From the IMG/VR virus record IMGVR_UViG_3300018405_000012: 20,000 nt of DNA; one strand, given 5' to 3'. Shown piece by piece: positions 4,185 through 17,716 of the stretch (the stretch's first letter is position 1; each line of letters opens with the position of its first letter). Under the pieces are notes generated by a model, which was not told the origin of the DNA, searched no databases, and worked only from the letters and a program-made list of their open reading frames with translations. The position numbers were made by a program, and so were the translations under genes. This stretch comes from an uncultured virus (IMG/VR IMGVR_UViG_3300018405_000012) (taxonomy: Duplodnaviria; Heunggongvirae; Uroviricota; Caudoviricetes).

Positions 4185-4491
4185 CGATGTCTTCGGTTAG
4201 GTTCGTTAAGCCTAACCCGCACCATTACGTGCAGCTCTGGGCTTTCCCCAGATGTCGAGACTATATCTTTACCCTCACTGTAGGGTAGTCCACATTTCCA
4301 CTCACTTGAGTGTACAGGCTGACGAGGCCTTAGTCGTTGAACCCGATCACCGTATCCGAAGACTTAGGTGCTTGGCTGCTGATTACCCAATCCTCACACT
4401 TTTCTAACCATGACCGTCTGATCTTTCGATCTCCGTTTTGGTAGTGAGGCTCTAAGGATGTCCCAGCAATTAGAGGACGCTCAGTTAACCA

Positions 4492-5508
4492 TTACTGATT
4501 AACCGGACCATTGTTACGGGCTGCATAGTCCGAATAGTACATGAATCTATATCCATCCCCATACGCCCGATCTGGGCGCTTGAGTCTGTAATCAAGAAGA
4601 GTTGGCGAGATATCGAATTTCCTAGCCGCATCTGTACATTGAGGAAATATCTCAATTGACTCACACGTGTCGTCAATTACTACGACAGACCTTTTCTTAG
4701 TGTACAAATCCAATTCCAAGTAGGGGTCTTCTACGTGTCGCCATGGTTTAGGATCACTAGCCAATTTTACCTGAATGTATCCAGGGAGTACTGGCTGGTT
4801 TTCTTGTTTTAACCATAGTGTCAACTTCGATTGATTGGTTCCTAGGAGCATAGCGAGCGTTTTAAGCTTCGAGAATGACTTTATTTTCCCTGTTAGAAGT
4901 TCTCTCACTAAAACTACTTTGCCATTGCGGTCCGGGAATGTCTTCCTTAATTCCTTTCCAGGAATGAACCAATCTTCTTCATCATGGAGACGTTTATACT
5001 GCCGTCCATCGGGAAATACCTTCTGTCCCTTAGACATTATCCTCCACAGTACAGCGTCCTTTGTCAAACCTAGATTAAGTGCGCATTTGATAGCACTTGG
5101 AAACTCAATAACAATACCAGTTACCGAGTCCCTGACAAGGACGGGAACGCATTTACTGGTCAATTGGTTATAACCAGCGTGTTCAGCGTTACCTGTATAA
5201 GTCTCCCACTCGAGATTATCAAGGAAATCATCGCCCTTGATGCAGTTCTTGTGGTTGACCACTAGGTTATCTATTGGGTATCCTGGGTGTTTGAAGACGA
5301 AGCACATGAGTCTGTGTCGACCCCAAGTTAACACCTTTCCATTGTCCCCAATTAATCGAAAGTTAAAGTAACCCTTCGGATTTCGACTTCCTTGCAGATA
5401 TTTCCCATCTGCCCGCCTAATTACTTCCCCAGTTATGGAAATCCCATAACGACTATATCCAGAAATTTCATAGAAACCTGGATAGTCCTCTAACTCGATT
5501 GGATTCAT
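4492..5508 (-). CDS. Intron-encoded NUMOD4/HNH homing endonuclease (I-HmuI-like) with repeated C-terminal DNA-binding modules
   Basis: Contains YGISITGEV...KGYFNFRL...HRLMCFVF...VNHKNCIKGDDFLDNLEW...N. The ATG at 5508 is 6 nt after AGGAG. The ORF is visibly more AT-rich than the flanking exons. Confidence 0.9.
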   Translation of the reverse strand: MNPIELEDYPGFYEISGYSRYGISITGEVIRRADGKYLQGSRNPKGYFNFRLIGDNGKVLTWGRHRLMCFVFKHPGYPIDNLVVNHKNCIKGDDFLDNLEWETYTGNAEHAGYNQLTSKCVPVLVRDSVTGIVIEFPSAIKCALNLGLTKDAVLWRIMSKGQKVFPDGRQYKRLHDEEDWFIPGKELRKTFPDRNGKVVLVRELLTGKIKSFSKLKTLAMLLGTNQSKLTLWLKQENQPVLPGYIQVKLASDPKPWRHVEDPYLELDLYTKKRSVVVIDDTCESIEIFPQCTDAARKFDISPTLLDYRLKRPDRAYGDGYRFMYYSDYAARNNGPVNQ

Positions 5509-5513
5509 GTGCA

Positions 5514-5540
5514 ACTCCTATCATGACATACAATAGGAGT
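5514..5540 (-). promoter_or_regulatory. RBS-sequestering hairpin of the endonuclease with TATG in the loop region
   Basis: ACUCCUAU (5540-5533) pairs perfectly with AUAGGAGU (5521-5514), which contains the SD AGGAG. TATG is at 5530-5527. Confidence 0.75.
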
Positions 5541-5570
5541 ACTATATTCATTACTATACAGCAAACATTA

Positions 5571-7028
5571 ATCGTCTCGGTCAGAGAACGGTGAGATCAA
5601 AGCTGATGTCGACAGCAGGTTAGCCGAACCATCCTTTTCCTTGTCGTACTTGCGAACGGTACCGCGAATGCTGGTGATGTTGGCATTCGGTGACATGTAG
5701 GTGATGACCGCCACGTCCCCCGAGTCCACTGTATCCCCAGAGATGAAGCCAATATCACTTTCCTTGTACAGGCGAGATTCTGCGGTCATCGAGCGGCTGC
5801 TCCGTCCACCGCGACCCCCGTACGTGATGATCTCCTTTTGCTTGAGGTTCTGAATCGGGTTGATGTCATCGACCAGTGCCGACGCCGGGTCTTGGACGAT
5901 GTTGGTCCAGACTTCATGGGGCTTCATGGTGACTTGAGAGTTGCTCGATGCACTGCGCGAGTTATACACCCGAATCGAACGCACCAGTTCCCCATAGACT
6001 GCTCCCGGAATCCGCTCATAGCCCTTGGCTCGTTCGAGACCATCGATCAGACCTTCCGCCCCTTCCACAACAGTTGGGACATAACGGTTGATCAGCAGCT
6101 CGACAGCCCGTAGCAACAATGGCACATACTCGGTGGGTTCTTTCATCCACTCGAGTACGCCCTTGGTGATCGGATCGACCCACATGGCGTTCATCAGGTC
6201 CAGTTCACGCAAATACCGCAACCCGATGCCGTTGGCGTCCAATACCGTGAAGTACACATCCTTGGCATTGAAGCTATGGCGACTGAAGCTCTTGATCTGC
6301 TTGTGATAGTGCACGAACCCGGCGAAAATCATACTGACTTTGTCGTCGGTCTTGTCGAGCACCACCGTTTCATCCAGGAACTTCAACGCGTACTCATCCG
6401 GCCCCATCTGCAGCCTAGTTCCAACAGGGACCGTCCGGAAGCTGGCTTTGGTCAGTTCAAGCAACCGATCAAACCCGACCAGATACGCCAGTGCGATTCC
6501 AACCGGCATGGTTTTACCGAAGATGCTGATTTCAGCCATCCCCACCGGGGCCTTTTCACGGTTCAGGTTAAACAGCTCTTCGACATGACCCAGCTCTTCA
6601 ACCTGTTCATTACCCTTAACCAGGTAGAAAGCATTGTCACGGTCCACCAGTACATAACCGTTGTCGCGCTTACCGCAGACCACCATCCCAGGATGCTTGT
6701 TCTCCAGCGCTTCGACCTGTACCATGTCCAATACACGGCTGCGGTGGCGGTTCTTGTAATCGAACCAGTACTGTCCATTCGACTCAAAGGACATCACACG
6801 GCTGCCGATGATGGTGTAAATCGTGGGCAGGTCAAGTCCGAAGTCCGCTACGTCAGCGACCTTTACATTGTTGATGTCGTTATCGGTCTTATCCAGACCC
6901 TTGGCGACAATCTGCTTACCGATCCAGGCATCGTAGTTGAACACAGAGCGCTGAGAGCGTTCGATGAACAACTTACTGTAGTAGCTGGTCAGTGCTACAC
7001 GGGTGGGGTTAACTTTTCTGATGGGAAT
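5571..7028 (-). CDS. vRNAP beta-N subunit, exon 2
   Basis: 486 codons from IPIRKVNPTRVALTSYYSK to SPFSDRDD. It includes the RpoB-like segments NPIQNLKQKEIITYGGRGG and GFISGDTVDSGDVAVITYM. Confidence 0.9.
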
Positions 7029-7492
7029 CAACCCCATCTGGTTGGACCATATCTTCATCCTCAGCACTCTATTGAGTTGTAGGATGCCTACCGTTTCCCC
7101 ATTCTTAATGAACAGGTACTCTACTCGCTTTAAAGACTCCTAAGAGCCACCACCTGGCTTTATGCAGATGTCATTAGTCCGTATGTACGGATGTAGCTTT
7201 CGATGGCCTCTGAGCACATCCCATGGCCTTGTAGGGCGTTAGGGACTTCGCTGCGTCGGTTGCGCCTATCGTTGACGTTTTTACCATGCTCATCGCTTCC
7301 ATTACTGGGATGAGTGTTACTCTCAGTTTCCTGGAGCAAGTGGTAGCCAATGACCTTAACGGCGTTTTCCCGCAATTAGGTAGGTTTGCTAGTGACGCAT
7401 TACTGCATCACGCGAACATTCGTTTCCGGTGTAATGATTTTACTGGGGTCGAACACATGTCCCCGTGCTTTAACGATTACTGGAAATTATTT
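7029..7492 (-). ncRNA. Group I intron, 464 nt, ORF-less
   Basis: Core elements are P AAUUGCGGGAAA, Q CGACGCAGCGAAG, R CUCAGAGGCCAU, S AAGAUAUGGUCC and P3 CCUACC/GGUAGG. The internal guide GAAUGUUCGC (7421-7412) pairs with 5' exon GCGGAU, with U-G at the splice site, and with 3' exon AUUC. Terminal G is 7029. The spliced protein reads QKAD|IPIRKV. Confidence 0.92.
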
Positions 7493-9301
7493 ATCCGCTT
7501 TCTGAGTCCGCAACCGATACCGTTGACCGTTGGAGATGTACACCCCGCGCTTGTCAACGACCGGCACCCGGAACGAGATGGTCGAAGGTTTTCCCGTTAC
7601 AGGAGTCAACTGGATCTTGTGGATCTCATAGTGACTGACCGCATCCTGCACCACCTCTACCTTATACCCAGTAACTGCTACACCGGCTTTCTGAACGGAC
7701 ATCACCGCATTGAGAATGTCCTTTTTCATCACCCGTTCGATGTACTGACTGTCCATCTGCTCCACGGTGGATTGCAACATGGATTCGTCACGCACCGCGT
7801 CAGTCTTAGGGTAGTTGTCAGCTGCCGAGAGGATTTGATCTTCATCGGTGATGACCAGCGACTCTTCCACAGTCTTCCCTGTGTTCCACGGATCGGGCAT
7901 GGTCTTGTACGACTCGGCCAGACGCTGCATCCGACGGTACTGGGCAGCGGTATACAGGTCCTTGTCCACCAATTCATCGAGCTTAGCCTGAATGCTGCTA
8001 GTCAGGGTGTGTGCGATGTTGCTGGTACCGACCACTTGACCGACGCTTTCGCGTTTATCCTGGTCAGCCTCAATCACCAGCTCCCCGTCCTCATCGGTGA
8101 GTACAGTGTCGGTATTGTCGGTCGCTGGCTCATCGAGTTCTTCAGCCAGTTCTTCTTCCACCTCGTCGATGGTCAGTTCGGGAGTGGTTGACTCCTCCAG
8201 CAGTCGGGCTTCTTCGTCAGCTTCTTCCTTGGCCTGAGCCGCTTCTTCAGGGTCCACCTCGCCTGCTTCAGGGGATTCCTCCAGCAAATCCGGATCAACT
8301 TCGGCCTGCACTGTACTGGTCTGAGCAACAACCCGTGTCAACATCTTCAGGAAGCGCAACTGGATGATCTTGGGGTCAATGCCAGCCGCAGCTTCCATCG
8401 AAACCTGCATGTCCTCATCCAGCGTCATGTCACCATTGTTCTCCATCGAGACATACCGATCAAAGGTCTCCTCGAAGTCAAACTCAGGGTCCGGTTCACC
8501 GATGGTCAGAGATTCCATAGAGACACCGGCACCTGCTTTACGCCAGCTATTGAGCAAGCCCAAGTTGATGGTCAGGAACCCAGTCTCGCGGCGAATAAGC
8601 AGTTCGATCTCATGTAGGCGCGATTCGTCCAACTTAGCCATTGGCGCCTTGGCACGGTGTTCGCCCAACCACATCCACAGATCCAGCAGATCCAGACGCT
8701 CACGTGAGTTGAATACTTTCATCAACATCGGCGTCATGTTGCGCTCTGCTTTACGCAGATCCGACAGGGCTGGCAGGCTCTGAGGGACATCCATCACGAC
8801 CAGATGATGACGTTCGTGAGGAGTCTTCAGCTGATTGATCCGCTCCCATTGCGTGGAACGAATGTTCTTCCAGTACCACCACCGACTCAGAGCCGAACGC
8901 TGATACTTGTACATGTGTCCGATCATGGCGTAGTTGACCACCACCATGTTGGTCAGCTCTTTGGTGCTACCGATGTAATCGCGCATCGGTCGGATGAACA
9001 TGTGCTCACGCCGATACTGCTGAATCATCGGACCAATCAGCTTATAGGTCGGCCGGGGATTGCCGTCTTTAACCAACAGATCAGATACATGATCAATGAA
9101 GACCAACCGCTGGGCCGCCTTGATGGCAGGGTCGTCATTGGCCGGGCCGAGTTCAGTCTCGGTGACGGGCATGTAGTGGTAGACCGTACCACGCGGTAGC
9201 GCAAAGCGACTGATCGGCCTGACCTTGGGGTTTTCCAGACCACCCAAGCGTCGAATACCGAACAGCTTTTCATAGCGCTCGTAAAGAAACATTACAGCCA
9301 T
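7493..9301 (-). CDS. vRNAP beta-N subunit (gp178-like), exon 1; spliced product about 1463 aa
   Basis: The ATG at 9301 is preceded by AGGAGA, a better start than 9322. The exon ends in the RpoB-like FRVPVVDKRGVYISNGQRYRLRTQKAD. The three exons give 603+486+374 aa. Confidence 0.88.
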
Positions 9302-9330: not shown

Positions 9331-9525
9331 TTAGGCTTTTGCCCGGCCGTGTTTGAAGCGACCCGTCATGTTGGCAATCACGTACTTGATGGTGTCGTAG
9401 TTGTAGGAGGAAAGCAGGCTGCCGTCAGTGTCGACCCAATACTGGCGACTGCTGAGCAGTTTGTCGTTTTCATCCAAGGCTTCATTACTCATCACCAAGG
9501 TTGCAGAACCAGTGTCTCCGTCAAA
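9331..9525 (-). CDS. vRNAP beta'-N subunit (gp180-like), exon 2
   Basis: Begins TTT GAC GGA GAC (FDGD), completing the catalytic ADFDGD motif; 64 codons plus TAA. Confidence 0.92.
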   Translation of the reverse strand, partial: FDGDTGSATLVMSNEALDENDKLLSSRQYWVDTDGSLLSSYNYDTIKYVIANMTGRFKHGRAKA

Positions 9526-9887
9526 CGGTATCTTCGGGTAGAGCCGCAACGCTCTACCCCGTGCACTCAAGCACTGCTCCAGGCTTTCCCTAGATGTCGA
9601 GACTATATCTTCACCTTCACCCTGAGGTGGTCAGGTGTCTCCCATTTCGGAACGCTTGTTCCTACGGGGCGCTACCCCCTAGTCGTTGAACCTTCCCCAT
9701 GCCGTTTGGTTTAGGGGCTTGGCTGCTAAAGGGACTCTTAGAGTCCACGGTTCCCCATTGTACATCCGTCCCGTTTTCAGACCATGGCTTTGCCTTTCGG
9801 CTCGCAGTGGTGGGACAGCTTTAGGGGGTTCCAGCAATTAGAGAGAAATCACTCCATCATTTCGGATGGAGGGGACTTTACTTGTTA
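9526..9887 (-). ncRNA. Group I intron (IA-like, with P7.1/P7.2), 362 nt, ORF-less, inside the DFDGD motif
   Basis: P1 is exon GGAU paired with GUCC, with U-G at the junction. Core elements are P AAUUGCUGGAA, Q UAGCAGCCAAG, R GUUCAACGACUA and S AAGAUAUAGUCU. Terminal G is 9526. Confidence 0.95.
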
Positions 9888-11336
9888 ATCCGCCTGCAAT
9901 CCCACCAGTTTGGCGGAATGTGGTGACTGACTGTCCATATAGGACGTCGATCCAGTCAATGGAAACTCAAGGGCGACATGATCTTCTGGATAGGGTTCCC
10001 AGTTATCGTCGAGTTCAGTCCGCTTCTCACCCACGATGGTCGTCTTGACATAGATGCGGCTCGCATAGATCGAGCGGTTACCGGAAATGGGGTAACGACT
10101 GATCTGGGCAAAATACCGGTTCCAGTGCTTGTAACCACAGAGGTAGAGCAACTCCACCAAGTTGATGGGGTGGACATGATCACGGTTAAGCTCGGCAGGC
10201 ATGTCATGCAGATCGTGGAAGATCTTGAAAGTCATGTCCGGACCTTTATAGATCAGGGCCAGATAATTCCCCTCCACCTCAATAGCCCGATGACGCACAT
10301 CCATCATCTGGTAGCGATCGATGATCCGCTCCAATCCATCGCGGGTGGTCCACAGATCACGGGTTTCAGGCGACAGAGTTACCCACTTGGGACGGAGGGT
10401 TTCCTTGTCAATCAGGCGGGCTTGACCTTCCCCTGGGTTGATCAGCGGCTCTACCAGGTTACGCAGATGGTGGATGGTGACTGGGGTCAGTCCCTTGATG
10501 ACCTGAAACAGGCCAAGGGTCGTGGCATCGAAACCCGGTGCATTAGTGTCATCCAAGTTGGCAATGGAGGTGTCCATTACGGTCAGGACGTTCCGGGTAC
10601 CGTAAGTCACCCGACGGCTGGCCCACTTGTCCAGAATCAGACCATTCTTACCGGACAGCATACCTTCGATGAGGTCGTAGATTTCCATCAGGCAGTTGGT
10701 CAGTGCGTTACGGGCAATGTCCAGGGCGGGTGATTCCATGTCACTGCTAATCGGGATGGTGTTACTGATTGACAGTGCCCGGTAATACAAGTCATGGATC
10801 TCGTTCTTAGAGACCACACCGTTGTCACTGATCTCAAGGTCACGCATCCCAGCCGGAATAATCGGCAAGTACTGCCCCAATGCGGTATCACGCCACTGAT
10901 TAATGAACTCAACGCGCATCTGGCGGGTTGGCGACTTGCTCTTGCGCAGCTGCAGTTCATGGAAGTGACGAACAAAGAAGCTGTAACCGGTTTCAGCCTT
11001 CTCGGACTTGTCTGCAATGAAATCCTTGGACACCGGGTCAAAAATGGCGGTCTCCCGCCCACTGACGATCCCACGGTAAATACCTTTCAGGCTCATCAGG
11101 TCCCTGAAGATCTTGGGGTGAAACACCCGGACCTTGAGGTTAATGTAGGAAAAGGTGGTTTCGCGTTGATCTGAACCCACCCGACCGAAGATCCGGGTTG
11201 AATACAGTCCCTCATCGTGAAATTCACTGCTGGCCCCGTCGTAGATATCAAGGCTGGTGACCGGGGTCAAGCGACTGACCCGTTCTTTAGTCAGGACCAT
11301 TGGCCAGACCTTGGCCGGAATCTCTGCGTAATTCAT
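9888..11336 (-). CDS. vRNAP beta'-N subunit (gp180-like), exon 1; spliced product about 547 aa
   Basis: Contains the RpoC-like motifs DEGLYSTRIFG, LPIIPAGMRD, GKNG..RRVTYGTRNV and SRYP. It ends at LVGLQAD, the first half of the catalytic motif. Confidence 0.92.
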
Positions 11337-11406: not shown

Positions 11407-14400
11407 ATGGCTAAGAAAGACGAAATCAATTTGGACGACCTCGACCTCGATAGTTTCGACTTCGACGTCCCTGAATTTGATGGCGAAGGTGTGGAGGATA
11501 GCTCTTCCCGCAAACCCATCGAGCGTGTGCTCAAAGGCGTAGTACACGGCGCTAAAAACGAATTGACCAGTGTATCCAGCCTCAGGACCGCTATGTCGCT
11601 GGCAATGCCTGAAGGGTATTCGCTGGCAGCTGACACACTCGAGAATATCGCAACCGACACCCGCTCACTATACGATAAGGTAGCCGGGGATTCTCCAGAA
11701 CTGGTTCGCAGCAGTAAGAGTTTTGGTCGAAAGGCCATGAACCTTCTGGGAAATAAGGTTCTGCCTAAGAAAGTCGCAGACCGCCTGAACAACGCCCTGG
11801 AGGAAGGTGAAGACTACAAGGTCACCTCCGAAGCCCAGTACCGTCGAGAACAGGAAGAGAGTGAGCTGGCTGCGCTGGCTGAGATCTTCAAGGCCAAGGC
11901 CGCTGCCGACGAAGAGCGTTCTGATCAGGATGCAGTTGAGAACGTCGAACGCAAGGCGCTTGAACAGGCTCGCTTAGTCCAACATCCAAGCCCTCAATGC
12001 CATCAATCGCAGCATGGCACGGTTGGTTGGGTATCAGGACAAGGTCACTATTCGTTACCAGCAAAAGATGCTGGAACTGAATTACCGTCAGTACGCGACC
12101 ACCAAGCAACTGACGGACATGATGTCCATTGCGACACAGAAACAACAACAATTACTTGAAACCATCCGCCACAACACCGCGCTCCCTGAGGCAGTTAAGA
12201 TTCGTGGCAGTGAAATGTTTGGTCAGATGGCCAGACAACGACTCATGGGAAATGGTCTTAACACGATTTCCAATTGGTCGCAAAATTACACCAAACAGAT
12301 GATGTCCAACGTCCAGGGCATGGTCAGCGGTTTCCTTGATCCAGTCAAGGATGCCCGCAGCATGACCGAGGGCATGGATAAGAGCTATCTGGCAGGTCAG
12401 ACCCTCGGCGCGACTGCCGCCGGGGCAGCTCGCGATCACGCATCGATGTTCATCTCGCCATTCCTGGCGAAGAACAAGCGTATCGCAATGGGTGGTGAGA
12501 AACTCAGAGGTGCATTCAGCGGCCTGCCGCAGAAAGTCAACGAATACGCGCAAAGTCAATCTGACAACGAAGGCTATGGCTTCAAGTCAGTGATGGGCAA
12601 AGTCTTCAAGAGCTTTTTGCCGCAATTTAGTCTGGATGCACGAACTGGTGGGGATTCGATTGAATCCCTCGATGAGATGGCGACGTTTGATAAACTCTCA
12701 CGCCGTTCATTGATCGAAGTGATTCCAGGTTACCTGTCTGAAATTGCTCACTGGACCAAAACCCTCGCTCGAGGTGAAGAGGGCGAGAAGCAGGTCTATA
12801 ACCTTGCTCGGGGTGGTTTCACTAGCCGCAAAGATCAACTGAAGGATATCCAACGCACGCTGATGCCACGTCAAGAACGTGAAAGTCTACGCGCTGCCGC
12901 GGATGACTTCCTGAAGATGATTGGCGCCGACGGGATGTCTACGCGCGCACAGCGAGTGCTCAAACTGAAGTTGCTCGATGAGTTGGCTAACGGACGCGAC
13001 CTGAAACCCGACCGGTTGTCCGATCCCGACAACTACCCAGGTGAAGAACTGGGGGTGGTGGAGGAAATCACCGAAGCGGTAATCGATGCATTCGGGTTGG
13101 ATGAGAACGGCAAGCGCACTGACATGTCCATCGAGGGACGTAAGCGCTTCAATGACATTGCCGATCACTTCTATCGCATGTCCAGCATGGTACCTGCGAT
13201 AGGCGACAAGACCCGCATCCTCGGAGACCTATTTGGTAAAGACACCCTTAGAGAACTTGGCTTCATACGCCGGGATGGCCGCGAAGACACCATTGATTTC
13301 AACAAATATTGGAGCAACATTCTCGATGGCGACTCCGACGCTGAATCAGGTAAAACAGGAACTCCGCAAGGTCGCAAGGATGACGTTAATCTGCGTGATC
13401 TCCTGCCTGGTAGTATTGCAAAGCTTATTGATCCTGCTGGTGATCATGCCTCGCGGGCTGTTCGAGCTGACGTATCTTCCGCTGGCGCGGCGCAGAGCCT
13501 CGGTCGAAAGACCGGACTAGAGCGTTACCTAGGGGATAAATCCACCCTCCTGACTTTGATCCGTGAATCGCGAGATTTTCACAGTGAGACAGTTGAGCTA
13601 CTCAAGCAACTCAGTACAAAAGGAATGTGCTGCAGTCAGCGCGGGGCCATGGAAGGGATGGCAGGAAAGGTGCAAGGGGCTACCCAGAACCTCTCCGAAC
13701 GCTTCAGGCATTACCGCAATGTTGCCGGTGATCGGGCATCCGATGTCTGGAAACGCGGTAATGAAAAATTCGACAAAGCCAAGGAGCTGGGTAGGGATAT
13801 CTGGCTCCAAGGCGATGATCATCCATTGATCACTGAAGCCAAGCTTAAAGCTGGCGAGTACCGTGACAAAGCCACCGGTGAGATCCTCAAGCACTGGGAG
13901 GAGATTAAAGGCGATGTCGTCGACCTCAAGGGCAAGACAGTCATGCGGTACAACGACTTCATGGAAAGCGGTTACATCGCTGACAAGAAAGGGAAGCTGA
14001 TCAAGCGCGCTGCAGACCTTAAGTTCAGGTTTGCCAGTTCAAAGGCCGGTCAGATGACCAGTGAGGCAGCCCGGTATATCACCGATCAGTCCAACAAATT
14101 GGCAACTGCAGCCAGCCCCCACCTGGACCAGGCAGGCAAGGAACTGAAGCGCCAGAAGCGTACCTTCAGACCTCGCATGAATCGTCTGATGCGCAGGCTC
14201 AAAGGTGAGCTGGGTGCTGATGTTTCCAGTGAGCTGACCGGAGACCATAACGAGGACATGTTGACGCTGGCGCTGCGCAACGTGCAGCTTCAGTACCAGA
14301 CCTTGCAGGAAGTCACCCGCGAGAAAGTCCGTAAGGGATCGTTCCAGGATCTGGCTTCGAGAGCCAAAGGAATGAAAGATGATCTTAAGGACAAGATCAA

Positions 14401-17400
14401 AGGAAAATCCGATGGCATCGGTGGACTCTTTAGTAAAGGTGGTCCGCTTGCTGCACTGATGGCCAAACTCCAAGGTGGGGAAGGCGAAGAAGGCGGTGGT
14501 GTTGGATGGTTGGGTGGCCTCGGCGGCTTATTAGGGGGTGGCCTCGGCGGCTTATTAGGGGGTGGCGATGGCGAGAGTAATAAAGACCGCGAGAATAAGC
14601 GGCGTGCTAAGCGAACCGGTAAACTCGGTAAGCTGATGAACTTTGGGGGACGGGCGCTTGATAAGATGGGGATCGTCGGCAAAGGATTGAAGCTGGGCGC
14701 TAAAGGAATCGGCGGCGCGGCTAAGTTGGGCTGGGGTGCAACCAAGCTCGTGGGTAAGGGAGCCTGGGGTGCAACCAAGCTTGCTGGGCGCCTCCTGACT
14801 AATCCCCTGACCCGTACTGTGCTGGGGACAGGTGCTCGCATGGCCGCCGGTGCTCTCTTGGGTGCGGCTGGTCTGGTCAGTGCTCCGGTACTCGCAGGGC
14901 TGGCGATCGGGGGTGCTGCCATAGCCGGGGGTGCCATGGTGTACTCGTTCGTCAAGGAGAAGGTTCCGCCACTGACGCGTCTTCGGATGGCACAGTACGG
15001 TATCGATCCGAAACCTGACACGGCTGAACTGAAGACCCTGCTGCAACTGGAAGAGTACGTGGGCAAGTACACGACCGTTGACCCAACCGGGAAGGCGCAA
15101 GTGGACATGCAGAGCATGTCGTTCGAACCCATTGCCCAGATGTTCAAGATCAACATGGATGTCCCACCCGCAGAGAACGAACTGTTCCAGCGCGTCAAGG
15201 CGTTTGTGACCGGTCGTTTTGCGGCGGTGTACTTGAACTGGATTGGCAACTACCACATGCTGAACAAGTCGCTTGACCTAGTCAAGATCGACGAGAAGCT
15301 GACCGGTAAGGTGGCGCTGGAGTTTGTGGGTAAGGTCGCCATGAGTGAGCGCTCCGAAGTCCTTAATGCCATGGTCAGTCCGTTCGAGGATGATGAGCTG
15401 GAAATGGATGCCAGGGACGTGGAAAAGATTGTCAAGGATGTCAAGCGAGAAATCGAAGCCAAGGCTGTGAAGTCTACAGTCGATACCGTGGCCAAGACAA
15501 ACGCAGCCGCTGCAGGGATGTCCCCCGGTCACGATGGTGCGGCACGCAAGGAAGCAGCAGCGAAAGCCAAAGCAGAACTGCAAAGCCCATCGACCACCCC
15601 GGCTACTCCACCGCCACAACCGCTGAATAGCCAGAGCAAGACCACGACGGCCAATGTCACTGGGATGGTGAAGGCAAGCTACGACCCGGCTGGCGCCACT
15701 GCCATCATGGGTGCAGGTGCGGCAGTGATTGCTGCGATCAATAAATCGGCTAAGGATTTGACTGACGGGCGGTCTGTCCGTTATCGTGTCTACGGCCTGA
15801 CCGAGATGGTCGAAAGTAAAGTCAATCAATTGGCTGCACTTGAAGCTTACTGCTTTGCTACCACACGCTACAACAAGGATGGCCAAGCTGAACTGGCTGA
15901 TGTTAATACCGGGATGTTGATGGCAGAGAAGATATTCGCCCCCATCGGGGAAGAGGTTGATCGGTGCTATATTTGGTTCCATCGTCGTTTCCTGCCGGCA
16001 TACCTGGCCTTCTGCACTGGGGTGAGGGCACGCGCTAACATCGATGCACAAACTGCCGATGACCGACTGGCACCTGAGCAGTTGATGGAAGTGCTCCGTG
16101 AAACGGCCACGGCACGGGACAATGCCGGTATCTCGGTCTGGGAGATTACAGCGAGCCCATGGCCCGGCTACTACCTCAATGAGGACAGTGACTCGGTCAA
16201 GGAACCCCTGTACAACCTCAGCTTGAAGATTAAGGACAAAGTCCTGTCGGAACAGGAAGCCATTCATAAGGGCCGCACCCGCGGCAAGAATGGTGAACTC
16301 CTGGCTGAAGATCCCACCCAAACCAACCGGCCGAGCGCACCGGGACAAGGCAATGGCCCGAACGGCTCTGCGACCCCAGAATCTCAAAAGGAGAATGGGG
16401 GTAGTTGGTGGTCGAAGACAAAGGACTTCTTCGGACTTGGTAGTAAGTCTGAACAACAGGGGTCTATCAACAGCAGCGGTCAACCCGCTGCACCTGGGGG
16501 TGCATCGACACTGAAGACTGGAACACCCGTCAGCCATCCTGGTGGTGGCACAGGCGGTAACATCAACGACATCCCAGAACCGCAAGGCGATGGGTGGGAA
16601 GCGAACCGGGCTACCTTGATGGCAGCTGCCAACATGGTCGGGGTCGATCCAGCACTGGCTGCTAGTATTGCCGGTGTTGAATCTAACTACAGACCTAATG
16701 CATTGCCATACAAGAACCCGCGCAACCCCTCCGCCGGTGTGCTCTCTTCGGCTGCCAGTTACTACCAGGTCATCAGCGGTACTTGGAAAGAACTGATGGG
16801 TAAGTATGCAGGTAAGTACGGCATCAACCCTGGCACCACGCAGCACGATCCACGGGCAAACGCCCTGTTGGGCCTTGAGTATATCCGGGAAAACATCAAC
16901 ACCATCAAGAAGGCGGTGAACCGTGGCATCACGGACACTGACGTCTACTTGGCACACTTCCTAGGTCCAGGTGGGGCGAGGAAATTCTTGAGAGCACCTC
17001 CGGGCGATCTTGCGATCAACCATGTAGGGCAAGCTCAGGCAAGATCAAACCCCGCGATCTTCTACAGTCGCAGTGGCCAACCGCGTACCGTGGCTGATGT
17101 CTACAACGACTTCGATAAGAAGTTGACGAAGCATCGGAAACAAGACGCAGGTCAAGTGGCCCAAGGGCTGCTGACAGGTTCGCCTGTACTCGCTGCCAGC
17201 GAAACCGCCGCAGGCAATGCTGGAGGAGCCGCAGGTTCAGTGGAGGCAACTGCGGCAACTGAGTCAGTGGCAGTTACCGCCGATGGTACAATGCCATCGA
17301 TGGTTAAGCCTGTTGAAACAGCACCTGCAACAAATACTGTGGCAGAGAACCAGAGTGCACCTTCCGCGACCAGTCTCACCGAACAGGCCGACGCACGGCA

Positions 17401-17716
17401 GACCCAGTCTACCATTGCACCCTTGGCCGTGGCTGCACGTACTGCAGAAGCTCAGACTGCCCCGCAGACTCGAGCCAATGCCGATACATTCGGTGGTGCT
17501 GAAGCTAACATCGGTCGTCTGATCAGTGTTAACGAATCGCAGCTGGAGCAACTGATCACCTTGGTCAGTCTGGTCAAAGGTGGTGCCATGCCCACACCCG
17601 GAGTCACCTCCGGTAAAAGTGAGCTGATGGCCAATTCCACCACTCGACAGAACCCCAGTATCAATGCCACACGACCCGCTCCGAAAGGGACGGTCTCCGT
17701 AGGGCGGATGGCGTAA
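11407..17716 (+). CDS. Tape-measure / tail-associated lytic transglycosylase, phiKZ gp181-like, about 2100 aa, interrupted by a +1 frame break near 11977
   Basis: A GGAG RBS precedes 11407. Frame 1 is protein-like up to EQAR, and the 12014..17716 frame is open from 11978. It has a Gly/Ala-rich hydrophobic stretch with 11-aa periodicity and a C-terminal SLT domain (GVDPALAASIAGVESNY...YQVISGTW...YLAHFLGPGGA). It is divergent from beta'-N as in phiKZ. Confidence 0.8.
14512..14566 (+). repeat. Perfect 24-bp tandem repeat, about 2.3 copies, encoding GGLGGLLG
   Basis: gggtggcctcggcggcttattagg occurs at 14512 and 14536, followed by a partial copy. Confidence 0.9.

What the first reader, a model, noticed from the sequence alone, without database searches (positions are those of the whole stretch)
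9526..9887. Intron inserted inside the catalytic Mg-binding motif (LQAD|FDGD) of beta'
Seen: exon 1 ends GCG GAT, the intron opens with an in-frame TAA, and exon 2 begins TTT GAC GGA GAC. Known: DFDGD binds the catalytic Mg2+ in all multisubunit RNAPs. Inference: unspliced mRNA gives an inactive subunit and imprecise intron loss would be lethal. The intron may also protect this highly conserved site from endonucleases of competing phages. Automated annotation would wrongly show a polymerase without an active site.
Basis: partly seen in the sequence, partly recalled or inferred. Interest (0 to 1): 0.8.

Follow-up and report, generated by a model that had tools for sequence, protein, structure and literature searches.

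The report
Self-splicing intron in phage polymerase active site
A 362-base self-splicing-type (group I) intron with no gene of its own splits the magnesium-binding DFDGD motif of a giant phage's virion RNA polymerase gene; it is real and recently mobile, but phage phiKZ carries an intron at the very same spot.

Summary
Exon 1 (11336..9888) ends ...LVGLQAD. A 362-nt insert (9887..9526) opens with an in-frame TAA. Exon 2 (9525..9331) starts FDGDTGSATL.

The insert is an ORF-less group I intron:
- Rfam RF00028 covers the full model at 47.9 bits (cut-off 50), E 3.5e-11.
- A U precedes the 5' splice site and a G ends the intron.
- Six same-site introns show compensatory pairs.
- A 98%-identical relative lacks exactly these 362 nt.

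The host gene is the virion RNA polymerase beta'-N subunit (phiKZ gp180 homologue).

The intron was acquired recently. The 39 nt upstream of it are 54% identical to the intronless relative, against 97-98% in the rest of the exons. An intron 96% identical sits in a phage whose exons are only 72-76% identical.

The site is occupied in 25 of 139 non-redundant environmental alleles, some carrying HNH endonuclease genes. It is also occupied in phiKZ (gp180/gp179), Goslar, RTH11 and LucasX.

This is a new member of a known kind; earlier reports of this scan found the same thing on other DNA. One extra: every occupied allele has GAT at the split Asp codon, and 104 of 108 empty alleles have GAC. Splicing itself was not shown.

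The parts
9888..11336 (-). Exon 1 of the virion RNA polymerase beta'-N gene (483 codons, ends ...KLVGLQAD; last codon GAT)
   Evidence: PHROG 2986 profile positions 4-484/539, E 2.8e-161. 79% aa identity to the DT01 'virion-associated RNA polymerase subunit'.
9526..9887 (-). ORF-less group I intron, 362 nt. It starts UAA (in-frame stop) and ends ...ACCG.
   Evidence: RF00028 at 9577-9897(-), 47.9 bits, E 3.5e-11, model positions 1-253 (same hit). MFE -134.3 kcal/mol, z -3.74, 0 of 100 shuffles fold as well. Exactly absent from L005. RNAalifold on 6 same-site introns: 72 pairs, 41 with compensatory changes.
9331..9525 (-). Exon 2 (FDGDTGSATLVMSNE..., 64 codons plus stop at 9333-9331)
   Evidence: PHROG 2986 positions 485-538/539, E 6.1e-13. 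192/195 nt identical to L005.
9888..9926 (-). Probable co-conversion tract: the last 39 nt of exon 1. It is 21/39 identical to the intronless sister allele, whose flanks are otherwise identical in the 169-nt stretch compared.
   Evidence: The changes are mostly synonymous (SPHSAKLVGLQAD against SPHSTKLVGLGAD) and include GAC->GAT at the splice-site codon.
9871..9876 (-). Internal guide sequence GUCCCC (intron nt 12-17). It pairs with the exon 1 end GCGGAU (P1, U.G wobble at the splice site, one C/C mismatch). The UAAA just 5' of it can pair with exon 2 UUUG (P10).
   Evidence: Read from the sequence and the P1 columns of the Rfam alignment. All six aligned same-site introns carry AAGUCC here. 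The pairing is inferred.
9536..9560 (-). Peripheral 9-bp hairpin after P9 (P9.2-like), followed by GAAGAUACCG with the terminal G
   Evidence: present in the MFE and centroid folds; columns 391-414. It lies outside the Rfam match, which explains why the intron reaches 51 nt beyond the model's end.

Best explanation
The 362 bases are a group I (subgroup IA-like, T4-type) self-splicing intron without an endonuclease gene. [quoted passage not shown] The insertion separates the first catalytic Asp of DFDGD from the other two.

Inferred mechanism. The pre-mRNA folds into the ribozyme. Exon 1's GCGGAU pairs with the guide GUCCCC, giving a U.G wobble at the splice site. An external guanosine attacks after that U, and the freed exon 1 then attacks after the terminal G. 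The result is an mRNA for a 547-aa subunit with an intact ...LQADFDGD... loop. A ribosome on unspliced RNA stops at once at the UAA.

The element is an ORF-less member of an intron lineage that homes to this exact site with I-HmuI-like HNH nicking endonucleases (phiKZ gp179 type). It entered this genome recently by gene conversion from a co-infecting relative, bringing about 39 nt of donor exon with it. By interrupting the target site it should make this allele immune to those endonucleases.

Shown: anatomy, exact empty allele, conserved structure, same-site relatives with and without HNH genes, the conversion-tract signature, and horizontal spread. Inferred: the splicing chemistry, the donor, and the immunity.
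For: Intron identity:
- RF00028 full-length match, 47.9 bits, E 3.5e-11.
- z -3.74.
- 41 of 72 consensus pairs carry compensatory changes in six same-site introns.
- In the IMG/VR and phage set, 9 of 9 introns (window plus 8) follow a GAT codon and end in G.
- In the metagenome set, 20 of 20 follow GAT, and 17 of the 17 with exon 2 in hand end in G.
- phiKZ has the same boundaries.

Empty alleles:
- DT01.
- L005.
- A DNA contig in run X4 joins 9525 to 9892 with 4 letters between.

Host gene is beta':
- PHROG 2986.
- The family profile hits AR9 nvRNAP beta' at E 3e-13 and bacterial beta' at about 2e-6. A second, individually insignificant stretch (i-E about 90), co-linear with the first, lays ...GLGADFDGD... 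on ...AFNADFDGDQ....
- The AlphaFold model (pLDDT 74.5) finds only RNAP beta' chains; top hit 7s01_d, E 7.9e-13.
- Synteny with phiKZ gp181/gp180/gp178.
- Gp180 is said to contain DFDGD (PMC10612078, passage). DFDGD coordinates the catalytic Mg (PMC2919709, passage).

Mobility:
- The window against L005 is 96.7% identical in exon 1 and 98.5% in exon 2, but 53.8% in the last 39 nt of exon 1.
- The window against L029 is 347/362 (95.9%) in the intron, against 75.9% in exon 1 and 71.9% in exon 2.
- Occupancy needs at least 20 changes on a tree of 164 beta'-N rows; shuffled labels give a mean of 27.7 and a minimum of 22 in 200.

Endonuclease alleles at the same site.
Against: - The Rfam score is below the gathering cut-off (47.9 against 50), and the default scan missed the intron.
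- No RNA evidence of splicing was found. The runs labelled RNA are contigs, probably DNA or other organisms' intron cores, and the only joint seen is a DNA intronless allele.
- For the phiKZ intron at this site, one long-read transcriptome study reported no evidence of splicing under its conditions (PMC10914365, passage).
- The modelled Mg loop (residues 469-488) has pLDDT below 50.
- Same-site introns do not form one clean clade. The window's core is as close to the PhiPA3 beta-gene intron (71%) as to the same-site L020 intron (73%).
- No endonuclease that could have mobilised this ORF-less copy is identified. The window's only HNH gene belongs to a different intron and resembles PhiPA3 gp210.
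Confidence: 0.9

Rival explanations
1. A decayed, no longer splicing intron relic: the beta'-N gene of this uncultured phage is a pseudogene, or the contig represents a defective genome.
For: The Rfam score is under the gathering cut-off. There is no splicing evidence. The neighbouring gp181-like gene carries a 2-nt deletion and frameshift relative to L005, so the assembly or genome has at least one other lesion.
Against: Both splice-site hallmarks, P1, and the P3-P9 core are intact. The copy is 96% identical to the L029 intron, which passes the cut-off at 53.0 bits. Exon 2 is open and 192/195 identical to the intact relative. The gene is a core virion enzyme of this phage group.
Confidence: 0.04
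2. A genuinely split gene. Two polypeptides (483 aa and about 64-79 aa) are translated separately and assemble, as beta' is split elsewhere in these phages.
For: A mechanical ORF, 9331..9570 (TTG start, 79 aa), covers exon 2. Jumbo-phage beta and beta' are already split into separate genes (PMC7598289, passage).
Against: The break lies inside the 5-residue Mg loop. The intervening RNA is a conserved group I fold. 108 of 139 non-redundant alleles read DFDGD or DYDGD without a break, and three more read DHDGD or DNDGD without a break. The TTG start lies inside the intron's peripheral hairpins.
Confidence: 0.02
3. The intron is retained mainly as a regulator: conditional splicing times or limits production of the virion polymerase. 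It is not merely selfish or protective DNA. This is compatible with the main explanation.
For: Passages in PMC10914365 cite condition-dependent splicing of phage group I introns. Three introns cluster in the two virion polymerase genes of this phage and nowhere else in the 107-kb record.
Against: Most relatives, including a 98%-identical one, do without it. Its distribution is nearly as patchy as random. That pattern fits a mobile element better than a conserved regulator.
Confidence: 0.08

Closest known systems
phiKZ gp180/gp179 intron (Pseudomonas phage phiKZ, virion RNAP beta'-N gene)
   Same: Same gene, same nucleotide position and same phase. PHIKZ180 ends ...LAPLGAD then TAA. A group I core follows (RF00028, 92.2 bits), and an unannotated exon 2 begins FDGDTVSF... 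after a terminal G. Window intron nt 161-305 are 76% identical to phiKZ 186401-186551. Introns in phiKZ gp180 and gp55 are mentioned in print (PMC11512511, passage citing Ceyssens 2014 and Mesyanzhinov 2002).
   Different: The phiKZ intron is about 1443 nt and carries the HNH gene gp179; the window's is 362 nt with no ORF. The host genes are only about 38% identical in protein. The window copy shows a fresh conversion tract.
Escherichia phage Goslar intron HOV27_gs002 with gp206
   Same: P0003 matches Goslar up to residue 483 and again from residue 480 about 2 kb downstream. The RefSeq record annotates 'Intron_gpI' there, next to an ORF 'weakly similar to ORF179 of phiKZ'.
   Different: It carries an endonuclease-like ORF, and the host is distant. 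I did not read Goslar's splice junctions base by base.
PhiPA3 gp210 intron in the virion RNAP beta gene (Birkholz et al. 2024, PMC11620839)
   Same: Same operon and a related ribozyme: 63 nt at 90.5% identity and 71% over the 3' 300 nt. It is inserted after conserved catalytic-region Asp residues. Its endonuclease was shown to nick the intronless allele of a competitor (passages). The window's third intron carries a 42%-identical HNH gene.
   Different: A different gene (beta, not beta') and site, and it has its own endonuclease. The competitive benefit was shown there, not here.
T4-type IA group I introns (td, nrdB, sunY) and other phage introns in catalytic motifs
   Same: Self-splicing intron in the most conserved codons of an essential enzyme. 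A 43-nt core stretch of the same-site RTH11 intron is 91-93% identical to unannotated stretches in T4-like phage records. The window's intron has two extra hairpins between the 5' strand of P7 and the 3' strand of P3.
   Different: The host gene is a multisubunit RNA polymerase rather than a nucleotide-metabolism or DNA polymerase gene. The subgroup assignment rests on recalled definitions and was not tested.
Xanthomonas phages RTH11 and LucasX, unannotated same-site introns
   Same: ORF-less 405-nt group I introns at ...AD|FDGD... (RF00028, 68.9 and 56.8 bits).
   Different: Only 55-56% core identity to the window's intron. Both are annotated as two unrelated CDSs.

Membership tests
Group I intron (Rfam RF00028) | Sequence and structure match to the conserved P1-P9 core at the curated score | tested here: inconclusive
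   47.9 bits against a gathering score of 50, full model 1-253, E 3.5e-11 in a 511-nt search. It was missed at the gathering threshold. The 96%-identical L029 copy scores 53.0. Same-site introns score 52-92 bits.
Group I intron (Rfam RF00028) | U as the last exon base, paired with G of the internal guide (P1), and G as the last intron base | tested here: met
   GAU|UAA... and ...ACCG|UUU. The guide GUCCCC lies opposite GCGGAU. The same boundaries occur in 9 of 9 introns and, in the metagenome set, in 20 of 20 (GAT) and 17 of 17 (terminal G).
Group I intron (Rfam RF00028) | Removal restores one continuous reading frame equal to intronless homologues | tested here: met
Group I intron (Rfam RF00028) | Base pairs kept by compensatory change among homologues | tested here: met
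   41 of 72 RNAalifold pairs have both-sides changes in 6 sequences. The alignment is small, and no shuffle control was run.
Group I intron (Rfam RF00028) | Self-splicing with guanosine cofactor | not testable with these tools
   No raw RNA reads of this phage were available, and the contigs were uninformative.
Mobile (homing) group I intron | Intron-encoded homing endonuclease | tested here: not met
   No plausible ORF lies in the 362 nt; the only mechanical ORF is a 52-aa TTG ORF. Relatives at the same site carry HNH_3 ORFs, and L083 holds a 208-aa remnant without the HNH domain. So this copy works like a passenger of that system rather than an autonomous member.
Mobile (homing) group I intron | Co-conversion of flanking exon and patchy distribution among close relatives | tested here: met
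   A 39-nt tract at 54% identity inside 97-98% identical exons. The intron is 96% identical against 72-76% for the exons with L029. At least 20 state changes are needed on the tree.
Multisubunit RNAP beta' (double-psi beta-barrel with NADFDGD) | Homology to beta', with the DFDGD aligned to the Mg loop | tested here: met
   Profile against PDB and Foldseek top hits all beta'. Pfam itself gives no hit, and the loop is of low confidence in the model.

The most novel reading that the evidence does not exclude
The base just before the insertion point marks an arms race. All occupied alleles read GAT (28 with the junction read here: 25 non-redundant environmental alleles plus the window, RTH11 and LucasX; phiKZ also). 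Of 108 non-redundant empty alleles, 104 read GAC. The two other Asp codons of the same motif are GAT in 23-25% of alleles, and Asp codons gene-wide in 40%. Needing U for splicing explains the occupied side only. The near-absence of T at empty sites would mean one of two things. Either C is a resistance allele against the gp179-type HNH endonucleases, or T-bearing empty sites are converted almost as soon as they arise. On this reading, ORF-less copies like this one persist because they immunise the catalytic-site DNA during co-infection.
Probability: 0.25. Interest if true: 0.6.

Novelty: new member of a known kind. Interest (0 to 1): 0.3.

Why it matters
Practical value: gene models of the virion polymerase beta' subunit in phiKZ-like phages are often wrong at this spot. 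The records for phiKZ, RTH11 and LucasX, and 9 of the best 120 database proteins, show a subunit that stops one residue into its Mg-binding motif.

Biological value: the window and its 98%-identical intronless sister give an unusually clean natural before-and-after pair for intron homing, with a 39-nt conversion tract. The survey shows that the DNA encoding A-D-F-D-G-D is a hot spot. It has three insertion positions within 6 nt and is occupied in about a fifth of environmental alleles.

That makes the site a good place to test whether intron endonucleases shape competition and genetic isolation among nucleus-forming phages, as was shown for the PhiPA3 gp210 intron. The element itself is ordinary for phage biology.

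Tried and rejected
- RNA evidence. The look-up of sequencing runs and read laying on X10, X12, X3 and X4 gave only contigs. High depth at 9574-9640 reflects the conserved core of many organisms' introns. The single joint (9525 to 9892, run X4) is a DNA intronless allele. Nothing can be said about splicing.
- Donor search. An exact 29-nt search for the conversion tract found 0 matches in viral contigs and 0 in metagenome contigs.
- Free-standing endonuclease hypothesis. The 433- and 446-aa ORFs after exon 2 in RTH11 and LucasX have no HNH hit. LucasX gives a weak phiKZ internal-head-protein hit. Rejected.
- Intron phylogeny. A FastTree of 3' 300-nt cores was unresolved, and same-site introns did not form one clade. 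I draw no conclusion on single versus multiple origins.
- Pfam on the beta'-N protein gave no family.
- Structure prediction was not accepted twice and then ran. The Mg loop itself is modelled with pLDDT below 50, so the model supports the fold, not the loop geometry.
- Papers not held: the AR9 genome paper (PMC13189113) and Ceyssens 2014 (PMC4178840). I did not look up Mesyanzhinov 2002. What these say about the gp180 intron is known to me only through a citing passage.
- Literature searches for DFDGD + intron + phage and gp180 + phiKZ + self-splicing found no paper describing this site in detail. Supplements were not consulted.

Full report
WHAT IS THERE. The feature lies on the minus strand. 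Exon 1 (11336..9888, 483 codons) ends ...SPHSAKLVGLQAD with the codon GAT at 9890-9888. The next triplet is TAA (9887-9885). The insert ends ...GAUACCG at 9526. From 9525 the frame reads FDGDTGSATLVMSNEALDEND... for 64 codons, to a stop at 9333-9331.

THE HOST GENE.
- PHROG 2986 ('RNA polymerase beta subunit') matches exon 1 at profile positions 4-484 and exon 2 at 485-538 of 539.
- The closest cultured relative is Pseudomonas phage pPa_SNUABM_DT01 (79% aa). It has one uninterrupted 564-aa 'virion-associated RNA polymerase subunit' reading ...KLVGLQADFDGDTGSATL..., in the same gene order: tail lysin (gp181-like), beta'-N, beta, and so on.
- A profile of 26 family members hits AR9 non-virion RNAP beta' (7S00_d, E 3e-13) and bacterial beta' (about 2e-6). 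A second, co-linear stretch places ...GLGADFDGD... on ...AFNADFDGDQ...; that stretch is not significant on its own.
- An AlphaFold model of the intact homologue P0003 (pLDDT 74.5) retrieves only beta' chains. The Mg loop itself is poorly modelled (pLDDT below 50 at residues 469-488).
- Pfam finds nothing.
- The phiKZ literature states that Gp180 contains the Mg-binding DFDGD (PMC10612078, passage). DFDGD coordinates the catalytic Mg in two-barrel polymerases (PMC2919709, passage).

THE INSERT IS A GROUP I INTRON.
- The default Rfam scan reported two group I introns elsewhere in the window (4235-4537 at 72.1 bits; 7018-7432 at 55.3 bits) but not this one.
- A local scan gives RF00028 over the whole model at 9577-9897(-): 47.9 bits against a cut-off of 50, E 3.5e-11 (the same hit appears in the 107-kb record G001).
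- The last exon base is U and the last intron base is G. Exon GCGGAU faces the guide GUCCCC with a U.G wobble at the splice site. UAAA next to the guide can pair with exon 2 UUUG. These pairings are read and are inferred.
- Two extra hairpins lie between the 5' strand of P7 and the 3' strand of P3, and two lie after P9. This suggests subgroup IA; that definition is recalled, not tested.
- The RNA folds at -134.3 kcal/mol, z -3.74, and 0 of 100 shuffles fold as well.
- Six ORF-less introns at the same site give 72 consensus pairs, 41 of them with compensatory changes.

EMPTY ALLELE AND RECENT GAIN. IMG/VR contig L005 is about 98% identical to the window and lacks exactly the 362 nt. It also lacks the roughly 464-nt second intron. 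An ungapped comparison of the spliced window with L005 showed 169 nt identical except for 18 mismatches in the 39 nt just upstream of the site, plus one mismatch 9 nt downstream. Over the whole exons:
- exon 1 is 96.7% identical;
- its last 39 nt are 53.8% identical;
- exon 2 is 98.5% identical.

Most of the changes are synonymous, and they include GAC to GAT at the splice codon. This is the signature of co-conversion during homing.

Locus L029 points the same way. Its beta'-N exons are only 75.9% and 71.9% identical to the window's, yet it carries an intron that is 347/362 (95.9%) identical, with one 34-nt insertion in the P1 loop. The intron is therefore much younger than the divergence of its hosts.

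DISTRIBUTION.
- Protein database: 9 of the best 120 hits are 482-499 aa long and end ...GLxAD plus 0-11 residues.
- IMG/VR: of 80 loci (79 distinct contigs), 6 are split at residue 483/484. The inserts are 353, 396, 369, 1135, 1354 and 2294 nt. RF00028 scores are 53-86 bits for five of them; L084 was not reported at E <= 0.001.
- Metagenome contigs, 80 loci:
  - 55 are continuous.
  - 20 are split at D|F. In 17, exon 2 is in hand. In 3, the contig ends just after the break, so the call is only probable.
  - 2 (L126, L127) are split 2 nt further on (GAC UU|...G|U GAY).
  - 2 (L157, L160) are probably split 3 nt earlier, after GCU of Ala, with an endonuclease-like ORF following.
  - 1 is a fragment.
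- At the gathering threshold, Rfam reports a group I match inside the insert for 9 of the 16 newly found D|F introns with both ends in hand, and for L127. The seventeenth, L092, is the same contig as L020 and was not rescanned.
- After merging alleles at least 99% alike in the 300 nt upstream, 139 remain. Of these, 25 are occupied at D|F (18%), 108 are empty with D[FY]DGD, 2 use the +2 site, and 4 are other (DHDGD or DNDGD variants and the -3 case).
- On a FastTree of 164 rows (residues 1-470 only), occupancy needs at least 20 changes. Shuffled labels give a mean of 27.7 and a minimum of 22 in 200 shuffles. The tree has many long branches and some redundant rows.

ENDONUCLEASE FORMS. Long introns at this site carry HNH_3 ORFs, mostly with NUMOD-type DNA-binding repeats: L080 (597 aa), L045 (319 aa), L110, L137, L149 and L156. 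The L159 ORF has no Pfam hit. L083 holds a 208-aa internally deleted remnant. The window's intron has no such ORF.

ALREADY KNOWN. Earlier reports of this scan on other genomes said that the site is occupied in phiKZ and flagged in Goslar. I checked both.
- phiKZ: PHIKZ180 ends ...LAPLGAD then TAA. Next come gp179 (32% identical to the first 295 residues of the HNH ORF of L080) and a group I core (92.2 bits). An unannotated exon 2, FDGDTVSFNAVY..., follows a terminal G. The intron is about 1443 nt.
- Goslar: the match breaks at residue 483 and resumes about 2 kb downstream. The RefSeq record annotates 'Intron_gpI' (HOV27_gs002) beside an ORF179-like gene.
- Xanthomonas phages RTH11 and LucasX have ORF-less 405-nt introns at the same point, annotated as two CDSs.
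- A 2024 paper mentions introns in phiKZ gp55 and gp180, citing Ceyssens 2014 and Mesyanzhinov 2002 (PMC11512511, passage). I could not read those two papers.
- A long-read study found no evidence of splicing for the phiKZ gp56, gp72 and gp179 introns under its conditions (PMC10914365, passage).
- Introns in jumbo-phage polymerase genes are described in general terms: 201phi2-1 gp273/274 (PMC2919709), PhiPA3 gp210 (PMC11620839), and AR9 and Staphylococcus jumbo phages (10.1101/2020.12.14.422802).

AN EXTRA OBSERVATION. In the 71 distinct intronless IMG/VR loci whose motif reads D[FY]DGD, the first Asp codon is GAC in 71 of 71. The second and third Asp codons are GAT in 18 and 16 of 71, and Asp codons gene-wide are 40% GAT. 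In the metagenome set, the empties are 50 GAC and 4 GAT. Non-redundant totals are 104 GAC and 4 GAT. Every occupied allele is GAT. The splicing requirement for U explains the occupied side. The deficit of T at empty sites is unexplained. It may reflect endonuclease pressure, or tight linkage with repeated conversion. The alleles are not phylogenetically independent.

WHAT WAS NOT SHOWN. Splicing was not shown. The donor was not found. The endonuclease that mobilised this copy, and any protective effect, remain unidentified.

VERDICT. This is a correct call of a real, recently mobile, ORF-less group I intron in the Mg loop of virion RNAP beta'. It is a new member of a known kind.

Noticed in passing
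window about 4194-5570 (-), ORF 4492..5514 (-): A third group I intron (RF00028, 72.1 bits at 4235-4537) lies in the virion RNAP beta gene between DT01-equivalent residues about 1087 and 1085. It carries a 340-aa HNH endonuclease that is 42% identical (E 2e-81) to PhiPA3 gp210, the competition endonuclease of Birkholz 2024. I did not check whether the insertion site is the same as in PhiPA3.
   Followed up: partly
window about 7026-7496 (-): A second, ORF-less group I intron (RF00028, 55.3 bits at 7018-7432) lies in the beta gene near DT01 residue 600. It is also absent from the 98%-identical contig L005. All three group I hits in the 107-kb record lie in the two virion polymerase genes.
   Followed up: partly
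window about 11975 (+), ORFs 11407..12159 and 12014..17716: The gp181-like tail lysin gene is broken by a 2-nt deletion (TA) relative to L005, giving a frameshift. This could be an assembly error, a real lesion or programmed frameshifting; it was not resolved.
   Followed up: partly
L126 about 1509-2003; L127 about 4458-4911; L157 and L160 about 4431 onward: Relatives use two further insertion positions in the same motif: +2 nt (inside the Phe codon, first Asp codon GAC; RF00028 66.9 bits in L127) and probably -3 nt (after the Ala codon, followed by an endonuclease-like ORF).
   Followed up: partly
L053, L070, L115 (motif region): Three intronless relatives read DHDGD or DNDGD instead of DFDGD or DYDGD at the Mg loop.
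   Followed up: no
L166 5770-6146 (Goslar 169269-169645): Goslar has a second annotated 'Intron_gpI' with an HNH gene next to another beta'-like gene, beside the nuclear shell gene. It is presumably in the non-virion polymerase. Its insertion site was not examined.
   Followed up: no
L083 5037-5663 compared with L080 5040-6833: The 208-aa intron ORF of L083 keeps the N- and C-terminal parts of L080's 597-aa HNH protein but lacks the middle, including the HNH domain. It looks like a snapshot of endonuclease decay on the way to ORF-less introns.
   Followed up: partly
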